In this document: positions 6,249 through 13,245 of the stretch, piece after piece
Numbering within the stretch: the stretch's first letter is position 1
Layout: each line of letters begins with the position of its first letter
Assembly (NCBI GenBank): GCA_023406985.1
Contig: JAEXTK010000293.1
Location: forward strand, 1-13,333
Source of the DNA: Spirochaetota bacterium
Lineage (GTDB): Bacteria; Spirochaetota; Spirochaetia; Treponematales; Breznakiellaceae
Reading direction: 5' to 3'
DNA: 13,333 bases
The notes under the pieces: generated by a model
Told to the model about the DNA's origin: nothing
Databases searched by the model: none
What the model saw: the letters and a program-made list of their open reading frames with translations, nothing else
Translations under genes and position numbers: made by a program

Positions 6249-7052
6249 CTAGGGAGTCTTGATCCAGTCCCGAACGAGGGCGGCCGTCTCGTGCGCCCGC
6301 TCGTCGAAGGGGAAGAGGTGGCCCGCGCCGGCGAGCCGTACGGCCTGGAACGACGAGGCTGCCTTGGCCCGCTGGCGGACCAGGTCGGCCACCTCCGCGG
6401 GAACGACGGGGTCCTCCGCTCCCACGATCACGAGGACGCGGGAGCGGAGGTCGCGTAGGCGGCTACCGCAGGCCAGCATGAGCCTGCCGAGCTCGGCGGC
6501 GGGAGCCACGAGGTCGTCGGCCCAATACTCGCCGTGAAGGGTTTCCCGGATCGGGTCCCCCCGGTCCCCCGCGGCGAGGGGCCGGTCGCGCCGCAGCACC
6601 GGCCGCACCAGACCTACGAGCCGCGCGAGCGTGAGGTTCTGGCCCGTCACCTTGAACGCCGGGGCGAGCAGCGCGAGCTTGGGGGCGCCGAAGGCGGCGG
6701 CCACGGCCGTGGCCAGGAGGCCGCCCATGGAGTGGCCGACCACGTGGACGGTGGGGTACGCGGCGCGGAGGTCCATGTACGCGTCGAAGGCCCGCCGCGC
6801 CCAGTCCTCGGCCCGGGTCAGCATGAGGTCGGCCCTGCTGGTCCCGTGTCCCGGATAGCGCGGCGCCGAGACGGCGTAGCCTTCGGCGGCCAAGGAGGCC
6901 GCGATGACGGACAATTCCGAGGGATTCCCCGTGAACCCGTGGAGGAGGAGCACGGCTTCCTTCGCGCCCGCGGGATCTTCCCGTATGGGCAAAACGTCCC
7001 GTATGGGCCGCGTTTCGGGCGCCGTCCGTAAAAGAGCTTCCAAGCGTGTCAT
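6249..7052 (-). CDS. Alpha/beta-hydrolase fold carboxylesterase/lipase-like protein
   Basis: Oxyanion-hole motif LLLHGFTGNP. Nucleophile elbow VVGHSMGGLLA (G-x-S-x-G). C-terminal AGHLFPF contains the His of the triad. Similar in size (267 aa) and organisation to Est30-type esterases. No convincing SD before the ATG at 7052. Confidence 0.8.
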   Translation of the reverse strand: MTRLEALLRTAPETRPIRDVLPIREDPAGAKEAVLLLHGFTGNPSELSVIAASLAAEGYAVSAPRYPGHGTSRADLMLTRAEDWARRAFDAYMDLRAAYPTVHVVGHSMGGLLATAVAAAFGAPKLALLAPAFKVTGQNLTLARLVGLVRPVLRRDRPLAAGDRGDPIRETLHGEYWADDLVAPAAELGRLMLACGSRLRDLRSRVLVIVGAEDPVVPAEVADLVRQRAKAASSFQAVRLAGAGHLFPFDERAHETAALVRDWIKTP

Positions 7053-7107
7053 AAATCCAAGAGTAGGCTATGCCGCGGGGCGCGGCAAGTACGGCGGCTC
7101 CGACCGC

Positions 7108-7158
7108 TTGACACATTGTACTAGTTCAATTAGCATTGTACTAGATGAATAGTACAAT
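7108..7158 (+). promoter_or_regulatory. Promoter (TTGACA-17-TAGCAT) for the GntR gene, overlaid by three copies of ATTGTACTA (two direct, one inverted). The inverted pair forms a perfect 9-6-9 palindrome spanning the start codon, so this is a probable autoregulatory operator and the transcript is leaderless.
   Basis: TTGACA is at 7108-7113 and TAGCAT at 7131-7136. ATTGTACTA occurs at 7115-7123 and 7135-7143. Its inverse TAGTACAAT is at 7150-7158, with spacer gATGaa containing the ATG at 7145. The predicted TSS at ~7143 lies 2 nt from the ATG. Confidence 0.45.
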
Positions 7159-7540
7159 CGCGAGCCGAGGCGTGGCATTCGGCCTGGACGCGTCGAGCGG
7201 GGTACCGTTCTACCGCCAGATCATCCAGCAGATCGAGCGCGCCATCCTCGCGCGGAAGCTCGAACCGGGGGATCGGCTGCCGACGATCAGGGCTCTCGCC
7301 GTGGAGCTCAAGATCAACCCCAACACCATCGCCCGGGCCTACGGCGAGCTGGAGATACGCGGCATCGTCGTCACCCAGGTCGGCAGCGGGACGTACATCT
7401 CGGACCAGAGACCTGAGCGCGAGGACGCGCGCGCCAAGAAACTCGCCGAGGTCGTGGCCCGGTTCGTTCGCGACACGGAGGCCCTGGGCGCGGACAGGGA
7501 CGAGGCGATCCGGCTCGTCCGCGAGTTCAAGGAGGACTGA
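7145..7540 (+). CDS. GntR-family transcriptional regulator, short YtrA-like subfamily
   Basis: The protein is 131 aa. The N-terminal winged HTH is FYRQIIQQIERAILARKLEPGDRLPTIRALAVELKINPNTIARAYGELEIRGIVVTQVGSGTYIS. The C-terminal extension is short (~50 aa), typical of YtrA-type regulators that control adjacent ABC transporters. Confidence 0.85.
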   Translation: MNSTIASRGVAFGLDASSGVPFYRQIIQQIERAILARKLEPGDRLPTIRALAVELKINPNTIARAYGELEIRGIVVTQVGSGTYISDQRPEREDARAKKLAEVVARFVRDTEALGADRDEAIRLVREFKED

Positions 7541-7541
7541 C

Positions 7542-8720
7542 ATGTGGTCGTTTCGGAAAAACAGCGAAGAGCCTCTCGTCCATAACCCCCGGCGCCCCGA
7601 ACGCCGCGTTGATTTCTCCATCAACGCCGTCGGCCTCATCCTCTTCTGCGCCCTCGTCGTCTTCACGCTGGCCGCCCGCCTCCTCGCGGGAGCGCGGCCG
7701 TCCGCCCTCGATTTCGGCGCCCTCGTCGCGACGCCGGTCGCCACGGTCGCCGTCATGTCGCTCTTCCCCCGCTGGGTCACCGCCGTGAAGTTGTTGATCC
7801 TGGTCGCCTGCGCGGGCGCGGCGTGGGCCCTCGTCGACTCGGGCCTGCTCCTCGCCTTCGCCGCGGCGGGCGCCCTGCTGGCGCCGGCGGTCCAGAAGCT
7901 GGAAGAATGGGAGCGGGCCATCGTCCTCCGCTTCGGCCGCTTCCACCGCGTCCGGGGGCCGGGGCTCTACCTGCTCCTGCCCTTCGCCGATCGCGCGGCC
8001 AAGACCGTGGACCTCCGCATCCGGGTGACCGACTTCAGCGCCGAGACCACCCTGACCCGGGACTCGGTCACGGTGACCGTGGACGCCCTCTGCTTCTGGC
8101 TCGTCTGGGACGCCGAGAAGGCGGTCCTGGAAGTCCAGGACTACGAGGAGGCCGTGGTGCTGTCCGCCAAGACGGCCCTCCGCGCCGCCATCAGCCGGAA
8201 CAACCTCACCGCCTTCCTGGAGCAGGGGAACGAGATCGAGAACCAGATCCGCGCGGACGTGGATATGAAGACCACCGAGTGGGGCATCACCGTCCAGCAC
8301 ATCGAGATCACCGATATCCAGATACCCGAGCAGCTGCAGGACTCCCTCTCCCGCCTCGCCCAGGCGGAGCGGGAAAAGATGGGGCGCGTGCTCCTGGCCG
8401 AGGCGGAGATCGAGATCGCCCATCGCCTGGAGACCGCGGCCAAGATCTACGAAAAGAACGACCTCGCCATGAAGCTCAAGACCCTCTCCATCCTCAACGA
8501 GGGCCTCAAGGCGGGCAATTCCATGATGCTCGTCCCCAACTCGATCACCGAAGAATTGAAATCGAAGGACCTTTTCGGCCTGCAGGCGCTCACCGAGACG
8601 CGGCTCCACGCGGAAGGCAAGCGGCCGCGGAATCGCGCCGGCCAACCCTCCAGTAACGCACCGGGGCGGCCGCAGGATGTATCTTCCGAACCCAAGGAGG
8701 ACGGCCATGACCGTCGTTAA
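7542..8720 (+). CDS. SPFH/band-7 (stomatin/prohibitin/HflK-like) membrane protein with a 4-TM N-terminal region and a disordered basic C-terminal tail
   Basis: SPFH core: EEWERAIVLRFGRFHRVRGPGLYLLLPFADRAAKTVDLRIRVTDFSAETTLTRDSVTVTVDALCFW...ISRNNLTAF...DVDMKTTEWGITVQHIEITDIQIPEQLQDSL...AQAEREK. It is followed by a coiled-coil (AEAEIEIAH). Four hydrophobic helices precede the SPFH domain. GGAGG lies 6 nt before the ATG. The ATG sits 1 nt after the GntR stop. Confidence 0.8.
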   Translation: MWSFRKNSEEPLVHNPRRPERRVDFSINAVGLILFCALVVFTLAARLLAGARPSALDFGALVATPVATVAVMSLFPRWVTAVKLLILVACAGAAWALVDSGLLLAFAAAGALLAPAVQKLEEWERAIVLRFGRFHRVRGPGLYLLLPFADRAAKTVDLRIRVTDFSAETTLTRDSVTVTVDALCFWLVWDAEKAVLEVQDYEEAVVLSAKTALRAAISRNNLTAFLEQGNEIENQIRADVDMKTTEWGITVQHIEITDIQIPEQLQDSLSRLAQAEREKMGRVLLAEAEIEIAHRLETAAKIYEKNDLAMKLKTLSILNEGLKAGNSMMLVPNSITEELKSKDLFGLQALTETRLHAEGKRPRNRAGQPSSNAPGRPQDVSSEPKEDGHDRR

Positions 8721-9432
8721 CGCAAGAGACCTCGTGAAGGATTATTCCCTCAACGGGATTACGGTGAACGCCCTGCGGGGCGTGAGCCTCTCGTTCGAGG
8801 CGGGCGAGTTCGCCGCCGTGGCCGGCCCCTCGGGGAGCGGGAAATCGACCTTCCTGCACCTCGTCGGCTGCCTGGACACGCCGACGGCGGGCTCCATCTC
8901 CATAGACGGCACCGACGTGGCGTCCTTGAGCCGGAAGGACCTGGCCCTGCTCCGCAGGCGGAGCATCGGCTTCATCTTCCAGGCCTACAACCTCATCCCG
9001 GTGCTGACCGCCCTGGAGAACGTTTCCCTGCCGCTCACGCTGCTCGGCGTGGACCGGGAGGAGACGCGCGGCAGGGCGGAGCGGGCGCTCGCGGACGTGG
9101 GCCTGGCCGACATGGGGAAGCGCAAGCCCAAGGAGATGTCGGGCGGCCAACAACAGCGCGTCGCCATAGCCCGCGCGCTCGTGAAGCGGCCGGCCCTCAT
9201 CCTGGCCGACGAGCCCACGGCGAACCTGGACTCCAAGACCGGCAAGGAGATCCTGGAGCTCATGCTCGACCTCAACCGGACCGCGGGCACGACCTTCATC
9301 TTCTCCACCCACGACAAGATGGTCATGGAGTACGCGCGGCGCCTCGTGCTCCTCAAGGACGGAAGGGTGGATGCGGAGACGGTGCGGGACGCGGCAGGCG
9401 CGGAGGCCGTAGCCGCGGGAGCCGCGCGATGA
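8707..9432 (+). CDS. ABC transporter ATP-binding protein, LolD/MacB-NBD/FtsE-like
   Basis: Walker A GPSGSGKST. Q-loop IGFIFQ. Signature MSGGQQQRVAIARAL. Walker B LILADEPTANLD. H-loop FSTHD. I chose the start at 8707 (AAGGAGG 6 nt upstream) over the ORF-track start at 8677. The CDS overlaps the SPFH gene 3' end by 14 nt. Confidence 0.9.
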   Translation: MTVVNARDLVKDYSLNGITVNALRGVSLSFEAGEFAAVAGPSGSGKSTFLHLVGCLDTPTAGSISIDGTDVASLSRKDLALLRRRSIGFIFQAYNLIPVLTALENVSLPLTLLGVDREETRGRAERALADVGLADMGKRKPKEMSGGQQQRVAIARALVKRPALILADEPTANLDSKTGKEILELMLDLNRTAGTTFIFSTHDKMVMEYARRLVLLKDGRVDAETVRDAAGAEAVAAGAAR

Positions 9433-11159
9433 CCGCCGCGGCGTTCCGGGACCTCGCGGGGATGGCGCTCCGCAATCTCGCGCGGCATAAGGTCAAGACG
9501 ATCATCACGACCATCGCCGTGGCCATCAGCGTCGCCCTCTACATCTTCATGGACGCGTGGCTGCTCGGCATGAACCTGGACTCCCGCCGGAACATCGTCT
9601 CCTACGAGATCGGCGCCGCGAAAGTCCAGAAGGCCGCGTACTTCGACAAGAAGGACGAGCTGCCCATGTACGAGAGTTTCGGCGGCTGGGAAGAGCTCGC
9701 GGCCGCGCTCGCCGCGGCGGGGTACGATTCGGCGCCCCGCTTCGTGTTCACGGGCACCCTCTACTCCCGCTCGGGTACCGCGCCCATCGTGTTCAACGCC
9801 GTGGACGTGGAGCGGGAGGCGAAGCTCCTCCGCTACCCCGCCTACCTCGAGTCCGGCCGCTTCCCCGCCGCGGGAAAGCGCGAAATCGCCATCGGCACCT
9901 TCGCGGCGGAGAAGCTCCGCGTCGGCATCCCGACCCGGCCCACCCGCGACGAATTCGAGGACGACCTCCTCGCCGCGGCCGCGACCGCGGAGGACGCGGC
10001 CTTCGTCCGGAGCCTCTACGGGCCGCCGCCGCCGCCCAAGAAGCAGGCCTTTTCCAACCCTGATCCCGCTTTGCGCTCGCTCGCGGCGGAGAAGCTCGCC
10101 CTCAAGGAGGGCGCGACCGCCGCTGAACTCGACCGCCTCTGGCGCATCCTCTCGGAATCCGGCCGCATGGATGTCCGCATCGCCACCACCATCGACCTCA
10201 AGGCCGCCCCGGAAATCATCCGCAAGGAAAAGTTCGAGGGGGAACTCCTCGCGAAACTAGAAGGGAGCGCCCGCGAGCGGCTCCGCGCCGCCTACGCGGC
10301 GGACGAGATCACCGGGGACTACCGCCTCGTCGCCGTCGACGAGGCGGAGGTGGCCGCGGTACTCGCGGATCTGCTGGCGATCGACTTCTCGGGGGCCGTA
10401 CGGCACGTGAACCAGCTCGTGGACGCCGTAGTCGTCGGCGTCGTCAACTCGCCCAACCCCAAGACGAACGGCAACGTCGCCTTCCTGCCCCTGGACGCCT
10501 TGCAGGACGAATCGGGCCTCATGCTCCAGGGCGCGGCGACCGAGCTCCTCGTGCGGAAGGCCGGCGCGGACGACGCGCGCCTGCCGGGCAGGGACGAGTC
10601 GGCGGAGGCGATCGAGGCGGCCCTCGCCTCCCGCCTGGGGGGGAAGCTCCCGGAAGGCCTCGTCGTGCGGCCCTGGATCGATTATGTATCCGATTACCTC
10701 GCGGCCGCGGCGGGCGACAACGTGTCCTCGCGGGTCATGATCTTCTTCCTCTTCGTCCTCTCCTTCATCGGGATCGCCAACACCATGCTCATGGCCATCC
10801 TGGAACGGACCAAGGAGACGGGCATGCTCCGCGCCCTCGGCATGACGGACGGCCAGGTCCTCCTGGCCTACGTGCTGGAGGCCGCCTGCATCGGCGCCCT
10901 CGGATCCGCGGTCGGCATCGTCGCGGGGTGCCTCATGAACATCCCGATGGTGGAACACGGCATCGATTATTCGGCGATGTCCAAGGAATTGGGCGGCGAC
11001 TTCGGCTACCGCATCACCGCGTTCTTCCGATCCGCCTGGAATCCCCCGGCCATCGCGCTCACCGGCGTCTTCGCGACCCTGCTCTCCGCGGCGGCCGCGA
11101 TCCTGCCCACCCGCAGGGCCCTCAAGATGCCCGTGACCGACAGCCTGCGGTTCGAATAG
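9429..11159 (+). CDS. FtsX/MacB/LolC-E-type ABC permease with a ~380-aa periplasmic domain between TM1 and TM2
   Basis: N-terminal LRNLARHKVKTIITTIAVAISVALYIF (TM1). C-terminal 3-TM FtsX block: ...MIFFLFVLSFIGIANTMLMAILERTKETGMLRALGMTDGQVLLAYVLEAACIGALGSAVGIVAG... The start overlaps the ATPase stop (ATGA). Confidence 0.85.
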   Translation: MTAAAFRDLAGMALRNLARHKVKTIITTIAVAISVALYIFMDAWLLGMNLDSRRNIVSYEIGAAKVQKAAYFDKKDELPMYESFGGWEELAAALAAAGYDSAPRFVFTGTLYSRSGTAPIVFNAVDVEREAKLLRYPAYLESGRFPAAGKREIAIGTFAAEKLRVGIPTRPTRDEFEDDLLAAAATAEDAAFVRSLYGPPPPPKKQAFSNPDPALRSLAAEKLALKEGATAAELDRLWRILSESGRMDVRIATTIDLKAAPEIIRKEKFEGELLAKLEGSARERLRAAYAADEITGDYRLVAVDEAEVAAVLADLLAIDFSGAVRHVNQLVDAVVVGVVNSPNPKTNGNVAFLPLDALQDESGLMLQGAATELLVRKAGADDARLPGRDESAEAIEAALASRLGGKLPEGLVVRPWIDYVSDYLAAAAGDNVSSRVMIFFLFVLSFIGIANTMLMAILERTKETGMLRALGMTDGQVLLAYVLEAACIGALGSAVGIVAGCLMNIPMVEHGIDYSAMSKELGGDFGYRITAFFRSAWNPPAIALTGVFATLLSAAAAILPTRRALKMPVTDSLRFE

Positions 11160-11168
11160 GAGTCCTCT

Positions 11169-12443
11169 ATGGAAAAGACCGTAACCGAGCGCGGCGGAAT
11201 CGCCGCCCTCGTCACGATAGCGTACCGGAACATCTGGCGGAACGGCCGGCGGACCGCGCTCTGCGTCGTCGCCGTGGCCATCGCCGTCTTCTTCAACATC
11301 TTCATGGGATCCTGGATGGACGGCATGATGACGGGCATCGAGGAGGTCGTGCGGACCTACGAGACGGGCCACGTCAACGCGGTGACCGAAAAGTTCGAGG
11401 AGGATCGGGAATACTACCCGGTCCAGTTCCCCATTGCCGGCGGCCGCGCCTCCGACGAACTCGTCGCCGAGCTGGAGGCCATCCCCGGGGTGCAGGCCGC
11501 CCTGCCGCGGATCACCGCCTACGCGACCCTCTTCGACAGCAACGTGAAGCACGCCCTCCTCTGGGGCGTGGACATCGAAAAGGAGCGGAAGGTCAACCAT
11601 CTCAACCTCACCGACCGCGACGACGGCCTCGTTTCGGGGCGCTTCCCCGCGGCGGGGGCGAACGAGTGCATGATCGGCGCCGAGATGGCGCGGAAAACCG
11701 GCCTCGGCGTGGGGGACCGCCTACCCTTCAAGACCGTATCCGCCCAGTTCTCGGACAAGTACCTGAGCCCGGCCATCGTCGGCATCTTCGAATTCGATTA
11801 CCGCAAATTCGACGAGGACGTCGTCCTCCTTCCCCTGGACCGGTTGCAGCGCATCCTCGTGCTCGACGGCGGAACCCAGCAACTGTTCGTCTACGCCGAC
11901 GACGCCCGCGAGAGCGCGCGGATCAAGGTCCAGGTGGAGAAGGTCTTGGGAGAAGGCCACGTCGTGCGGGAATGGGGGGACAACTACTGGGTCGCCATGA
12001 TGCGGCAGAGTTCCTTCATGTTCCTCATCATCTTCGGCGTGTTCCAGATCGTGGCCAGTTTCCTCATCATCAACACGGTCCTCATGGTGATCCACGAACG
12101 CATCAAGGAGATCGGCATGATGGGCGCGCTCGGGATGACCCGGCGCGAGATCGTGCTCGTCTTCTTCTTCGAGGCGGTGTTCCTGAGCGTGTTCGGGGCG
12201 CTCGCGGGCTGCGCCGTCGGGGGCCTCGTGACGCGGATCGGGTCCTACTTCCCCATCGACATGCAAGTCTTCACCGGCGGCGGCATGAAGGACATGCCGG
12301 TCTCCGGCACCATCTTCCTGGATTTCTCGCCCGCGGGCATCGGCCGGAGTTTCCTCTTCGGGGTGGCGGTCTCGGGGGCGTGCACGCTCATCCCCTCGCT
12401 CAAGAGCGCCTTCATCGAACCCGTGGAAGCCCTCCGCCGTTGA
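11169..12443 (+). CDS. Second FtsX/LolC-E-type ABC permease (approx 225-aa periplasmic domain)
   Basis: TM1 is ALCVVAVAIAVFFNIFMGSW. FtsX block: FMFLIIFGVFQIVASFLIINTVLMVIHERIKEIGMMGALGMTRREIVLVFFFEAVFLSVFGALAGCAVGG. SD AGGAG lies 6 nt upstream. A 9-nt gap separates it from the preceding permease. Confidence 0.85.
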   Translation: MEKTVTERGGIAALVTIAYRNIWRNGRRTALCVVAVAIAVFFNIFMGSWMDGMMTGIEEVVRTYETGHVNAVTEKFEEDREYYPVQFPIAGGRASDELVAELEAIPGVQAALPRITAYATLFDSNVKHALLWGVDIEKERKVNHLNLTDRDDGLVSGRFPAAGANECMIGAEMARKTGLGVGDRLPFKTVSAQFSDKYLSPAIVGIFEFDYRKFDEDVVLLPLDRLQRILVLDGGTQQLFVYADDARESARIKVQVEKVLGEGHVVREWGDNYWVAMMRQSSFMFLIIFGVFQIVASFLIINTVLMVIHERIKEIGMMGALGMTRREIVLVFFFEAVFLSVFGALAGCAVGGLVTRIGSYFPIDMQVFTGGGMKDMPVSGTIFLDFSPAGIGRSFLFGVAVSGACTLIPSLKSAFIEPVEALRR

Positions 12444-12474: not shown

Positions 12475-13245
12475 ATGAACGATACGTTTCGCGGTATTCC
12501 CCGCATGAACTTCCCGGCGGCGGCCGCCGTCTTGACGCTCGCGTTGATCGCCTTCCCTGCGGCGGCCGCCCCGACCGCGGCCGAGCTGCTCGCGAAGGTG
12601 GACGAGAACGAGGTGTACGACAGCATCGCCTACAAGGGCGAGATGATCATCGAGTACCAGGGCAAGCGCTTCGTCAAGAAGTTCGAGGCGGCCGGGAACG
12701 GCGAACAGGACAGCTTCGTGGAGTTCGTGAACCCCGAGGACAAGGGGACCAAGTACCTCAAGAAGGACGGACGGCTCTACGTGTATTCGCCCGATACCGA
12801 AGAGGTCATGCTCATCTCCGGCCATCTGCTCAAGGAATCGATGATGGGTTCGGACATGTCGTACGAGGATACGATCGACAACGAGAAACTGTCGGCCCGC
12901 TACGTCCCGACGCTCGCGGGCACGGAAGCCTACGAGGGGAGGCAGGCCTACCTCCTGGACCTCGCGGCCAAGAAGAAGACGGAGAGCTATCCGCGGCAGA
13001 AGCTCTGGATCGATACGGAGACGGGCGACCTCCTCCACTATGAGCTCTTCGCCCTCTCGGGCGCCAAGCTCAAGGAGTACAAGCTCATCCGCGCCGAGCT
13101 CATCGGGAAGCGCCGCTTTCCCGTGGAGGGAGAGATGCGCGACCTCCTCCGCAAGGGCAGCCGCACCCTCTTCCGCATGTACGACGTGAAGCTGGACGTC
13201 GCCATCCCCGACTCCACCTTCAGCCTCAGGAACCTGGAACGATGA
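12475..13245 (+). CDS. Secreted LolA-like / outer-membrane lipoprotein-sorting-protein-like periplasmic protein
   Basis: Signal peptide MNFPAAAAVLTLALIAFPAAAAP with no lipobox Cys, so it is soluble periplasmic. ~230-aa mature beta-rich domain with alternating hydrophobic/polar strands (YKGEMIIEYQGKRFVKKFEAAG...KLWIDTETGDLLHYELFALSGAKLKEYKL). This matches the LolA-like family commonly encoded next to FtsX permeases. SD AAGGAGA is 5 nt upstream. Confidence 0.65.
   Translation: MNDTFRGIPRMNFPAAAAVLTLALIAFPAAAAPTAAELLAKVDENEVYDSIAYKGEMIIEYQGKRFVKKFEAAGNGEQDSFVEFVNPEDKGTKYLKKDGRLYVYSPDTEEVMLISGHLLKESMMGSDMSYEDTIDNEKLSARYVPTLAGTEAYEGRQAYLLDLAAKKKTESYPRQKLWIDTETGDLLHYELFALSGAKLKEYKLIRAELIGKRRFPVEGEMRDLLRKGSRTLFRMYDVKLDVAIPDSTFSLRNLER

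What the first reader, a model, noticed from the sequence alone, without database searches (positions are those of the whole stretch)
7108..7158. Leaderless GntR gene with a perfect palindromic operator spanning its own start codon, plus a third direct half-site
ATTGTACTA-gATGaa-TAGTACAAT (7135-7158) is a perfect 9-bp inverted repeat whose spacer contains the initiation codon. A third identical half-site (7115-7123) lies 20 bp upstream, one helical turn offset from the TTGACA -35. The -10 TAGCAT ends 8 nt before the ATG, so the transcript should start within about 2 nt of the ATG.

This layout (operator = TSS = start codon) is a textbook self-repression design. It also defines a candidate motif for finding the rest of the regulon. 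The divergent esterase gene starts only 56 bp from the -35, and the half-sites, 63-105 bp upstream of its start, could regulate its promoter as well.
Basis: seen in the sequence. Interest (0 to 1): 0.55.

Follow-up and report, generated by a model that had tools for sequence, protein, structure and literature searches.

The report
Leaderless YtrA-type repressor with operator-embedded start codon
A small GntR/YtrA-type repressor gene in a spirochaete has its start codon inside its own palindromic binding site, a correct but fairly ordinary self-repression design that is conserved almost base for base in about 48 related loci.

Summary
ATTGTACTA occurs at 7115-7123 (+), 7135-7143 (+) and 7150-7158 (-).

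The gene at 7145-7540 encodes a 131-aa YtrA-subfamily GntR regulator. It heads a conserved operon: SPFH protein, ABC ATPase, two FtsX/MacB permeases and a LolA-like protein.

In 48 distinct spirochaete loci the layout TTGACA-N17-TAnnnT, TTGTACTA-gATGaa-TAGTACAA is kept almost base for base:
- Codons 2-4 are always AAT-AGT-ACA, which are rare codons elsewhere in these genes.
- The reading frame from this ATG always reaches the GntR domain, although the linker length varies.
- There is no Shine-Dalgarno sequence, whereas the downstream genes have AAGGAGG.

More distant orthologues keep the same 8-N6-8 palindrome but have a normal leader. In metagenomes, 87 of 120 exact palindrome hits have a YtrA-like gene on the same fragment, about 80 of them starting within roughly 100 nt.

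The GT-N14-AC geometry matches the experimentally studied MbrR operator (mutated bases G3 and C20) and is one base shorter than the B. subtilis YtrA operator.

Verdict: a sound prediction of an autorepressed, leaderless YtrA-type operon, a new member of a known kind. Co-regulation of the divergent hydrolase is not supported. The transcription start and protein binding remain untested.

The parts
7108..7113 (+). -35 hexamer TTGACA of the operon promoter
   Evidence: Promoter scan gives TTGACA-17-TAGCAT with 10/12 matches. The hexamer is within 1 mismatch of TTGACA at the same distance from the ATG in 43 of 48 related loci.
7115..7130 (.). Auxiliary operator (site 1): compact palindrome ATTGTACT|AGTTCAAT with one mismatch, filling the -35/-10 spacer
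   Evidence: I3; fourth half-site at 7122-7130, minus strand. The left half is within 1 mismatch in 39 of 48 loci. The right half is within 1 mismatch in 25 of 48 and within 2 in 32 of 48. It is absent in some orthologues (L012, L014, L015, L020, L025), so it is auxiliary.
7131..7136 (+). -10 hexamer TAGCAT; its last two bases are the first two bases of the main operator arm
   Evidence: The TAnnnT pattern is kept in 46 of 48 loci with variable middle bases, as expected of a -10 element rather than of operator sequence.
7135..7158 (.). Main operator: ATTGTACTA-gATGaa-TAGTACAAT. The conserved core is 7136-7157, TTGTACTA-N6-TAGTACAA (GT-N14-AC). It covers the predicted transcription start, the start codon and codons 2-5.
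   Evidence: Perfect inverted repeat (I6). Close to 2 bits per position in 31 loci. The same palindrome with a variable N6 lies upstream of leadered orthologues. It lies next to YtrA-like genes in most of 120 metagenome hits. No compensatory covariation, so a DNA-level site.
7143..7145 (+). Predicted transcription start (A7143, G7144 or A7145), giving a 0-2 nt leader
   Evidence: Inferred from promoter geometry: these are positions 7-9 downstream of the -10. Not measured. The first 21 nt of an RNA starting at 7143 are unpaired in the predicted fold.
7145..7540 (+). ytrA-like gene, 131 aa: GntR winged helix-turn-helix (residues 23-85) plus a two-helix C-terminal part. The N-terminal MNST is encoded by the operator's right arm.
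   Evidence: Pfam PF00392, E=2.8e-17. Full-length match to YtrA-type structures 4HAM, 4R1H and 3NEU. AlphaFold2 model with pLDDT 83.7: helices 94-113 and 118-127, residues 1-4 disordered. Start codon supported. Database relatives called from GTG 7172 (P0001, 122 aa) are probably mis-started.
7542..8720 (+). SPFH/Band-7 (flotillin/HflK-like) membrane protein; second gene of the operon, with Shine-Dalgarno AAGGAGG
   Evidence: PF01145, E=4e-36. Shine-Dalgarno sequence. Follows the regulator in nearly all related loci.
8707..9432 (+). ABC transporter ATPase (LolD/MacB-like). The start at 8707 has an AAGGAGG Shine-Dalgarno sequence; the longer ORF begins at 8677.
   Evidence: PF00005. NCBIfam LolD/MacB-like, below cutoffs. 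Shine-Dalgarno sequence. Gene call in the source contig. Synteny.
9429..11159 (+). FtsX/MacB-type permease 1
   Evidence: PF02687 and PF12704. Synteny.
11169..12443 (+). FtsX/MacB-type permease 2
   Evidence: PF12704 and PF02687.
12475..13245 (+). LolA-like (TP_0789-like) protein; last operon gene inside the window
   Evidence: PF17131, E=9e-44. Shine-Dalgarno AAGGAG.

Best explanation
This is the promoter-operator region of an autorepressed operon headed by a YtrA-subfamily GntR repressor, in a GC-rich spirochaete (Treponemataceae-like).

Promoter and start. A sigma-70-type promoter (TTGACA-N17-TAGCAT) should start transcription 0-2 nt before the ATG at 7145. The regulator would then be translated from a leaderless mRNA, while the downstream genes use strong Shine-Dalgarno sites.

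Main operator. A dimer of the regulator binds the 22-24 bp palindrome TTGTACTA-N6-TAGTACAA at 7135-7158. This site overlaps the end of the -10, the transcription start, the start codon (which lies in the N6 spacer) and codons 2-5 (the right arm). Bound repressor would therefore block open-complex formation or promoter escape.

Auxiliary operator. A second, weaker compact palindrome at 7115-7130 fills the -35/-10 spacer. It probably recruits further subunits.

Consequence for the protein. Because the right arm is also coding sequence, the N-terminus MNST is dictated by the operator.

What is shown and what is inferred:
- Shown here by comparison: the element is a conserved DNA-level site, it is specifically associated with YtrA-like genes, and the ATG is the translated start.
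- Inferred: the exact transcription start, binding by this protein, and repression.
- Inferred by analogy only: induction. The models are envelope or antimicrobial-peptide stress, possibly through capture of the repressor by the cognate ABC ATPase as reported for MbrR. Low leaderless translation of the regulator relative to its co-transcribed genes would follow the AcuR precedent.
For: Sequence and statistics.

Family assignment:
- Pfam GntR domain.
- Full-length similarity to YtrA-type crystal structures 4HAM, 4R1H, 3NEU and 3BY6.
- Model with a winged helix-turn-helix plus two C-terminal helices.
- Best NCBIfam neighbours are Rv1152 and PmtR, both below cutoff.

Conservation:
- 31-locus logo and 48 distinct loci.
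- The loci range from 35% to 67% GC, yet the stretch from -9 to +13 is near-invariant.

DNA-level constraint:
- Codons 2-4 are AAT in 27 of 27, AGT in 27 of 27 and ACA in 29 of 29 cases.
- The same codons make up 36%, 6% and 10% of their families in the rest of the same genes.
- ACA is used for 0 of 149 Thr codons in eight other genes of the window.

Translated start:
- 46 of 46 ORFs are in frame, while the distance from MNST to the PxYxQ motif varies from 19 to 48 residues.
- No Shine-Dalgarno sequence at 7145, against AAGGAGG before the SPFH and ABC genes.

Operator identity:
- Leadered orthologues keep TTGTAYTA-N6-TARTACAA just after their -10, with a variable N6 and a GGAGG-containing leader.
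- Of 120 exact metagenome hits, 87 have a YtrA-like gene of about 26-67% identity on the same fragment, about 80 of them within roughly 100 nt. Several other hits precede ABC ATPase genes.

Geometry:
- G3 and C20 of the 22-bp core are kept in 45 of 47 loci. These are the numbered positions whose mutation abolished high-affinity MbrR binding (bioRxiv 10.64898/2026.02.18.706565).
- B. subtilis YtrA binds AGTGTA-N13-TACACT (PMC8060467).
- YtrA motifs are long, with GT and AC far from the centre, and often carry extra half-site boxes (PMC4494728).

Other support:
- The operon SPFH-ABC-FtsX is conserved. The MbrR regulon also contains ABC pumps and a flotillin.
- Leaderless mRNAs are frequent in another spirochaete, Leptospira (PMC5243855).
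- A leaderless autoregulated operon with an n6-spaced inverted repeat over the promoter is established for AcuR (PMC3017554).
Against: - No transcription-start, binding or expression data exist for this or any orthologous locus. Everything rests on sequence comparison.
- The -10 lies 8 nt from the ATG, so the favoured start (A7143) would leave a 2-nt leader rather than a 5'-terminal AUG. That could matter for leaderless initiation.
- The two operators have different half-site spacings: overlapping halves at site 1, and N6-separated halves at the main site. One rigid dimer cannot bind both in the same way, so the role of site 1 is unclear.
- Gene callers placed the start at GTG 7172 in the source contig.
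- The induction mechanism is pure analogy to Gram-positive systems.
Confidence: 0.8

Rival explanations
1. The gene really starts at GTG 7172, as annotated in the source contig (122 aa). The palindrome would then lie in a short 5' leader, or in the promoter of a second promoter, TTAGCA-17-TACAAT at 7130-7158.
For: - Gene callers chose this start for P0001 and P0003.
- The promoter scan lists a second sigma-70-like match whose -10 is the right operator arm.
- GAGG lies just upstream of the GTG.
- Typical YtrA proteins have only about 10 residues before the PxYxQ motif.
Against: - GAGG is only 1 nt from the GTG, which is too close.
- A start codon at that position is not conserved. For example, L002 has CTG there.
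- The ORF from ATG 7145 stays open and in frame in 46 of 46 loci across 14 linker lengths.
- The -35-like TTAGCA coincides with the variable middle of the -10 and is not conserved.
- Cultured relatives are annotated from MNST (P0077, P0089).
Confidence: 0.05
2. The palindrome acts as an RNA hairpin in the mRNA, sequestering the AUG in its loop or acting as an attenuator, rather than as a protein-binding DNA site.
For: RNA covering 7130-7165 folds into a stable hairpin (-12.1 kcal/mol, z=-4.2) with the AUG in the loop.
Against: - With the conserved promoter, the left arm is not transcribed.
- The arms are conserved in sequence, with one double change and otherwise symmetry-breaking single changes, so there is no compensatory covariation.
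- The same half-site recurs in the untranscribed promoter spacer.
- No Rfam family matches.
- The palindrome tracks YtrA-type regulator genes across phyla, in different positions relative to the start codon.
Confidence: 0.03
3. The palindrome is the site of a different DNA-binding protein, for example a TrpR-like repressor whose operator resembles GTACTAG. Its proximity to the GntR gene would be incidental.
For: Some exact metagenome hits of the same pattern lie before trpE-, trpB- and DAHP-synthase-like genes with no GntR gene nearby (L096, L144, L176). Unrelated factors can therefore use near-identical sequences.
Against: - 87 of 120 hits have a YtrA-like gene on the same fragment, about 80 within roughly 100 nt.
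- All 48 spirochaete loci carry the palindrome at the regulator's own start.
- The geometry matches experimentally defined YtrA-type operators.
- The window has no trp genes.
Confidence: 0.04
4. The operators form a divergon control region that also represses the divergent alpha/beta-hydrolase gene (6249-7052, minus strand).
For: - The hydrolase ATG at 7052 is 56 bp from the -35. The longer start is plausible, because the N-terminal strands before the HGFTG motif would otherwise be missing.
- A repressor bound at 7115-7158 lies 63-106 bp upstream of that start.
Against: - The hydrolase is not adjacent to the regulator in any of the 54 related genomic loci.
- No minus-strand sigma-70-like promoter is detected in 6800-7400.
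- YtrA-type sites almost never serve divergons (PMC4494728).
- The operators are positioned precisely with respect to the plus-strand promoter elements.
Confidence: 0.1

Closest known systems
B. subtilis YtrA and the ytrGABCDEF operon, founding member of the YtrA subfamily of GntR regulators
   Same: - Small GntR regulator with a reduced C-terminal part.
- Autorepressed operon encoding an ABC transporter.
- Long inverted-repeat operator, AGTGTA-N13-TACACT. Its TGTA...TACA blocks are separated by 13 bp, against 12 bp here (PMC8060467).
   Different: - This is a different orthologous group in a diderm spirochaete.
- The operon carries an SPFH protein and a LolA-like protein.
- The start codon lies inside the operator, the message appears leaderless, and a second compact palindrome sits in the promoter spacer.
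- From my own knowledge, not checked here: ytrA is not the first gene of its operon and has a conventional ribosome-binding site.
MbrR-MbrAB of Streptococcus salivarius (YtrA-like repressor controlled by its ABC transporter; bioRxiv 10.64898/2026.02.18.706565)
   Same: - YtrA-like repressor co-transcribed with an ABC transporter.
- Palindromic box in which mutating G3 and C20 abolished high-affinity binding. These are the numbered positions of the near-invariant G and C in the 22-bp core here.
- The MbrR regulon includes ABC pumps and a flotillin-like protein. Here an SPFH gene is in the operon.
   Different: - MbrR is from a Gram-positive bacterium and its genes have ribosome-binding sites.
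- The MbrR box sequence itself could not be read, because it is only in a figure.
- Sequestration by the ATPase is demonstrated there and is only an analogy here.
- The transporter here is a MacB/FtsX type with a LolA-like partner.
AcuR (TetR family) acuR-acuI-dddL operon of Rhodobacter sphaeroides (PMC3017554)
   Same: - The regulator is the first gene of a leaderless operon.
- An n6-spaced inverted repeat overlaps the promoter.
- The regulator is translated less efficiently than the downstream Shine-Dalgarno-led genes.
   Different: - It belongs to a different regulator family.
- Its operator lies upstream of the ATG, whereas here the ATG and four codons lie inside the operator.
- Its transcription start was mapped experimentally, whereas here it is only predicted.
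PmtR (S. aureus) and Rv1152 (M. tuberculosis), YtrA-type regulators
   Same: These are the best NCBIfam neighbours of the protein. From my own knowledge, not checked here: both are short GntR regulators linked to ABC export or envelope stress.
   Different: Scores are far below the family cutoffs (75.9 against 170 bits, and 57.2 against 200 bits). The protein is therefore not a member of either equivalog.
TrpR operators of Gammaproteobacteria
   Same: The GTACTAG-containing palindrome looks similar (the TrpR consensus is from my own knowledge). Exact pattern hits were found upstream of trp- and aro-like genes.
   Different: The protein family is unrelated, and the window has no trp genes or TrpR. 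This is a look-alike only, and a caution for motif-based regulon scans.

Membership tests
GntR family, YtrA subfamily | N-terminal GntR-type winged helix-turn-helix domain | tested here: met
   PF00392 over residues 23-85, E=2.8e-17, 62.6 bits against a cutoff of 27. The model shows H22-35, H48-55, H59-71 and a beta hairpin at 75-85.
GntR family, YtrA subfamily | Reduced C-terminal part of about 50 residues with only two alpha-helices | tested here: met
   The AlphaFold2 model (pLDDT 83.7) has exactly two C-terminal helices, 94-113 and 118-127. There is full-length alignment to the YtrA-type structure 4HAM (query 11-131 against chain 4-125), and also to 4R1H, 3NEU and 3BY6.
GntR family, YtrA subfamily | Gene forms an operon with ABC-transporter genes | tested here: met
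   An ABC ATPase and two FtsX/MacB permeases lie downstream on the same strand with minimal gaps. The arrangement is conserved in most related loci.
GntR family, YtrA subfamily | Long palindromic operator with the conserved GT and AC far from the centre | tested here: met
   TTGTACTA-N6-TAGTACAA, which is GT-N14-AC. It is conserved in 48 loci, in leadered orthologues and next to YtrA-like genes in metagenomes. The criterion comes from PMC4494728.
GntR family, YtrA subfamily | The protein binds this operator and represses its own operon | not testable with these tools
   Needs EMSA or footprinting and expression analysis of a deletion mutant.
Leaderless mRNA | Primary 5' end at, or within a few nucleotides of, the start codon | tested here: inconclusive
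   This is only predicted. The conserved -35 and -10 lie at a fixed distance, and the -10 ends 8 nt before the ATG, which places the start at 7143-7145. No transcriptome data are available.
Leaderless mRNA | No Shine-Dalgarno sequence upstream of the start codon, in an organism that otherwise uses them | tested here: met
   The sequence upstream of 7145 is operator (cattgtactag). SPFH, ABC (8707), LolA-like, MCP and FtsX2 have AAGGAGG, AAGGAG, GGAGG or AGGAG at the proper spacing.
Leaderless mRNA | The codon at the 5' end is the codon actually used for translation initiation | tested here: met
   This evidence is indirect. The codon is ATG in 30 of 31 loci and GTG in one. The ORF from it is in frame with the GntR domain in 46 of 46 loci, although the linker length varies from 19 to 48 residues up to the PxYxQ motif.
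MbrR-type transporter-sequestration switch | Direct, ATP-dependent capture of the repressor by the cognate ABC ATPase | not testable with these tools
   Known only from bioRxiv 10.64898/2026.02.18.706565. It would need two-hybrid, pull-down or complex modelling.
MbrR-type transporter-sequestration switch | YtrA-like repressor adjacent to an ABC ATPase, with a palindromic box carrying a G at position 3 and a C at position 20 | tested here: met
   Gene order. G3 and C20 of the 22-bp core are kept in 45 of 47 loci. The position numbering is as quoted.
Cis-regulatory RNA hairpin | Base pairs maintained by compensatory changes, with both arms transcribed | tested here: not met
   Among 47 loci there is one double change and otherwise symmetry-breaking single changes. 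The left arm lies upstream of the predicted transcription start. There is no Rfam match.

The most novel reading that the evidence does not exclude
Embedding the start codon in the operator may be an evolved stoichiometry device rather than just compaction. Leaderless translation would keep the repressor scarce relative to the Shine-Dalgarno-led ABC ATPase made from the same transcript. A transporter-capture switch of the MbrR type could then flip sharply. This would extend that mechanism from Gram-positive bacteria to a diderm spirochaete envelope module (SPFH, MacB/FtsX and LolA-like proteins). As a side effect, the protein's N-terminus (MNST) would be a pure by-product of operator sequence, a clean natural case of DNA-binding code overriding codon choice across a clade.
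Probability: 0.15. Interest if true: 0.55.

Novelty: new member of a known kind. Interest (0 to 1): 0.33.

Why it matters
- It gives a ready-made, well-supported operator (TTGTAYTA-N6-TARTACAA) and promoter model for a widespread but unstudied group of YtrA-type regulators. The group occurs in spirochaetes and, with the same palindrome, in YtrA-like loci of diverse metagenomes, including soil, and in a Coriobacteriales MAG.
- It corrects a recurrent start-codon mis-annotation. Several database entries begin at a downstream GTG or ATG.
- It is a clean example of regulatory sequence dictating the first codons of a protein.
- It points to an SPFH/MacB-type/LolA-like envelope operon as the regulated unit. 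That operon could be tested in cultured relatives: Sediminispirochaeta smaragdinae DSM 11293 and Brucepastera parasyntrophica both have MNST-starting orthologues.
- It does not challenge any current concept.

Tried and rejected
- Perfect 9-bp inverted repeat as evidence in itself: rejected. Markov-1 simulations show such repeats are common in this GC-rich window. The significance comes from the AT-rich 9-mer recurring and from conservation.
- GTG 7172 start and the second promoter-like match: rejected.
- RNA-structure reading: no covariation and no Rfam hit.
- Hydrolase co-regulation: no synteny and no minus-strand promoter.
- Prior description of this motif. The YtrA site tables in the supplement of Suvorova et al. 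are stored truncated, and only DgoR (FadR-type) TTGTAGTACAA sites were retrieved. A full-text search for TGTACTA together with GntR also returned only DgoR papers. I could not establish whether the motif is already catalogued, for example in RegPrecise.
- Regulon scan in the source genome: not possible. Within the window and L055, the main operator is the only site with 3 or fewer mismatches.
- Reading the MbrR box sequence from the preprint: it is only in a figure, so only the G3/C20 numbering could be compared.
Full report
**1. The observation**

Reading 6900-7400 confirms every coordinate in the finding:
- TTGACA at 7108-7113 and TAGCAT at 7131-7136.
- ATTGTACTA at 7115-7123 and 7135-7143.
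- Spacer gATGaa at 7144-7149, with the ATG at 7145.
- TAGTACAAT at 7150-7158.
- An in-frame TAG directly before the ATG.

The repeat finder reports the perfect 9/6/9 inverted repeat. It also reports a 17-nt direct repeat (88% identity) spaced 20 bp apart.

The upstream copy is therefore half of a second, compact palindrome, ATTGTACT|AGTTCAAT (7115-7130). This palindrome fills the spacer between the -35 and the -10.

The promoter scan finds TTGACA-17-TAGCAT (10/12 matches). It also finds a weaker second match whose -10 is the right operator arm.

On chance, a perfect 9-bp inverted repeat alone is not remarkable in this 67% GC window. Markov-1 simulations give a mean of 1.9 per window, and a GC-rich example sits at 10322-10347. 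The AT-rich 9-mer is different. It is expected 0.009 times from composition, or 0.12 times with up to one mismatch. It occurs four times within 44 bp, and 0 of 200 shuffles reach that.

**2. The gene and its neighbours**

ORF 7145-7540 encodes 131 aa with a GntR winged helix-turn-helix at residues 23-85.
- Its best solved relatives are small YtrA-type proteins (4HAM, 4R1H, 3NEU, 3BY6), aligned over nearly the full length.
- An AlphaFold2 model (pLDDT 83.7) shows the winged helix-turn-helix plus exactly two C-terminal helices. Residues 1-4 are disordered.
- NCBIfam places it nearest Rv1152 and PmtR, but far below their cutoffs.

Downstream, on the same strand and almost without gaps, lie an SPFH/Band-7 protein, an ABC ATPase, two FtsX/MacB permeases and a LolA-like (TP_0789-like) protein. 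Divergently upstream lies an alpha/beta hydrolase.

The closest database relative (P0001) differs from the window protein only at its start residue, Met for the GTG-7172 codon (99%). Through it the source was traced to a 49-kb metagenome-assembly contig (ERZ24911381). Related loci are all Spirochaetota, mostly Treponemataceae-like MAGs.

**3. Comparative evidence**

*Layout.* In about 30 genomic loci whose regulators are 51-77% identical, the upstream region aligns without gaps. The aligned layout is TTGACA, n, ATTGTACTAGTaCAwt, TAnnAT, TGTACTAG, ATG AAT AGT ACA A.

*Logo.* A 31-sequence logo shows:
- the -35 at -37 to -32;
- a 17-nt spacer;
- a -10 with T-14, A-13 and T-9 nearly invariant and the middle bases free;
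- close to 2 bits per position from -9 to +13, dropping to noise from +14.
The loci range from 35% to 67% GC.

*More loci.* Adding metagenome fragments gives 48 distinct loci:
- the -35 is within 1 mismatch in 43;
- the -10 fits TAnnnT in 46;
- the left half of site 1 is within 1 mismatch in 39;
- the right half of site 1 is within 2 mismatches in 32.

*Constraint at the DNA level.*
- Codon 2 is AAT in 27 of 27 Asn cases, codon 3 is AGT in 27 of 27 Ser cases, and codon 4 is ACA in 29 of 29 Thr cases.
- The same codons make up 36%, 6% and 10% of their families in the rest of these genes.
- ACA is used for 0 of 149 Thr codons in eight other genes of the window.

*The ATG is translated.* The ORF from it is open and in frame with the GntR domain in 46 of 46 loci. 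This holds even though the distance from MNST to the conserved PxYxQ motif takes 14 different values, from 19 to 48 residues.

*No Shine-Dalgarno sequence.* None precedes 7145, whereas SPFH and the ABC ATPase (start 8707) have AAGGAGG and the LolA-like gene has AAGGAG. The alternative GTG 7172, used by gene callers, has GAGG only 1 nt away. A start codon there is not conserved.

**4. The palindrome is the cognate operator of this regulator family**

More distant orthologues keep TTGTAYTA-N6-TARTACAA immediately after a -10-like hexamer. Examples are L028, L036, L037, L040, L042, L043, L046, L049, L050 and L054, the last from a Coriobacteriales MAG. In these loci the N6 is variable, and a 20-40 nt leader containing GGAGG precedes the start codon. 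The spirochaete clade represented by the window has in effect lost the leader and placed the ATG in the spacer.

- On 87 of them a YtrA-like gene of about 26-67% identity lies on the same fragment, and in about 80 it starts within roughly 100 nt.
- 17 have the GATGAA (spirochaete-type) spacer.
- Several of the rest precede ABC ATPase genes (L064, L097, L122, L151).
- A few precede trpE-, trpB- and DAHP-synthase-like genes. I take these to be TrpR-operator look-alikes.

In the arms there is essentially no compensatory covariation: one double change in 47 loci, and the other deviations break symmetry. The outermost A/T pair is not conserved, so the core is 8-N6-8. No Rfam family matches. The site therefore acts as DNA, not RNA.

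**5. Relation to what is known**

- YtrA-type regulators are described as short GntR proteins in operons with ABC transporters. Their operators are long palindromes with GT and AC far from the centre, usually single sites, almost never in divergons, and often accompanied by additional half-site boxes (PMC4494728). That study contained no spirochaetes.
- B. subtilis YtrA binds AGTGTA-N13-TACACT (PMC8060467). Here the TGTA and TACA blocks are 12 bp apart.
- MbrR of S. salivarius binds a palindrome in which mutating G3 and C20 abolished high-affinity binding. It controls ABC pumps and a flotillin, and it is released from DNA by capture on its ABC ATPase (bioRxiv 10.64898/2026.02.18.706565). In the 22-bp core here, G3 and C20 are kept in 45 of 47 loci, and an SPFH gene is in the operon.
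- Leaderless autoregulated operons with an n6-spaced inverted repeat over the promoter are established (AcuR, PMC3017554).
- Leaderless mRNAs are common in Leptospira (PMC5243855).

Text searches did not retrieve a description of this particular motif for a YtrA regulator. However, the relevant supplementary table is stored truncated.

**6. Mechanism**

The best-supported model is promoter occlusion by the operon's own first product.
- The main operator spans the 3' edge of the -10, the transcription start (predicted at 7143-7145, positions 7-9 after the -10), the ATG and codons 2-5.
- The auxiliary palindrome occupies the -35/-10 spacer. The two sites have different half-site spacings, so site 1 probably serves additional subunits or a higher-order complex. 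This is unresolved.
- An mRNA starting at 7143 has an unpaired 5' end in the predicted fold.

Shown here: the conservation, the association with YtrA-like genes, the translated start and the absence of a Shine-Dalgarno sequence. Inferred: the exact transcription start, binding and repression. By analogy only: the inducing signal, the ATPase-capture mechanism, and the idea that leaderless translation keeps the repressor scarce relative to its co-transcribed partners.

**7. The hydrolase**

Its longer start at ATG 7052 is plausible, because the strands preceding the HGFTG motif would otherwise be missing. The source annotation starts it at 6953. Even so, co-regulation lacks support:
- the gene is not next to the regulator in any of the 54 related genomic loci;
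- no minus-strand sigma-70-like promoter is detected;
- YtrA sites rarely serve divergons.

**8. Verdict**

The finding is correct and its main interpretation holds. It is an ordinary kind of system, an autorepressed YtrA-type ABC-transporter operon, in an undescribed orthologous group. Its tidy twist is that the start codon and the first four codons lie inside the operator, and this is conserved across a whole clade.

- Novelty: new member of a known kind.
- Interest: 0.33.

Noticed in passing
window 7172 (GTG); proteins P0001, P0003, P0048; L055 7166-7534: Gene callers start this regulator at a downstream GTG or ATG in several database entries (122-123 aa). This cuts off the operator-encoded MNST N-terminus and looks like a systematic mis-annotation of a leaderless gene.
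   Followed up: yes
window 10322-10347: A perfect GC-rich palindrome, CCGCCTCGTCGCCGTCGACGAGGCGG (arms up to 11 bp), lies inside the FtsX/MacB permease 1 coding region. Simulations show such GC-rich repeats are expected by chance here.
   Followed up: partly
window 6979-6990 and 6997-7008: An exact 12-bp direct repeat, TCCCGTATGGGC, is spaced 18 bp apart. It lies in the 5' part of the hydrolase ORF (minus strand), where the protein reads PIRDVLPIRE. Its meaning is unknown.
   Followed up: no
window 6953 vs 7052 (minus strand) and 8677 vs 8707 (plus strand): Two neighbouring genes have ambiguous starts. The hydrolase is called from GTG 6953 in the source contig, but its fold needs the residues encoded up to ATG 7052. 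The ABC ATPase most likely starts at 8707 (AAGGAGG upstream) rather than at the first ATG, 8677.
   Followed up: partly
L062, L063, L069, L076, L078, L094, L105, L109, L120, L134, L154, L169, L170 (metagenome fragments, many from soil): A large group of YtrA-like loci has the identical palindrome, preceded by a conserved TTGAAACCTTAC-like box and followed after only 5-9 nt by the ATG, with no Shine-Dalgarno sequence. This may be another leaderless layout with a different promoter type.
   Followed up: no
L070, L085, L090, L133, L161, L174: In these fragments the palindrome sits directly after TTGACA, and the ATG or GTG follows the right arm by 7-9 nt. The right arm's TACAAn would serve as the -10. 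This would be an independently arranged leaderless version of the same regulator-operator pair. The source organisms were not checked.
   Followed up: no
L096, L144, L176: The exact pattern TTGTACTA-N6-TAGTACAA also occurs upstream of trpE-, trpB- and DAHP-synthase-like genes with no GntR gene nearby. I take these to be TrpR-operator look-alikes. Motif-only regulon scans would pick up such sites.
   Followed up: partly
L044 1308-1329 and 2706-2727: One related locus has two operator copies. One lies before the regulator and one lies before an upstream FtsX-permease gene pair. This suggests the regulon can include a second ABC operon.
   Followed up: no
window 7130-7921 (minus strand): A 263-aa antisense ORF overlaps the regulator gene and the start of the SPFH gene. 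It is probably a GC-rich artefact, and it has no gene call in the source contig.
   Followed up: no
L055 13236-14495 (beyond the window end): The operon appears to continue past the LolA-like gene with a 419-aa protein that has no Pfam hit. Its start overlaps the LolA-like stop.
   Followed up: no
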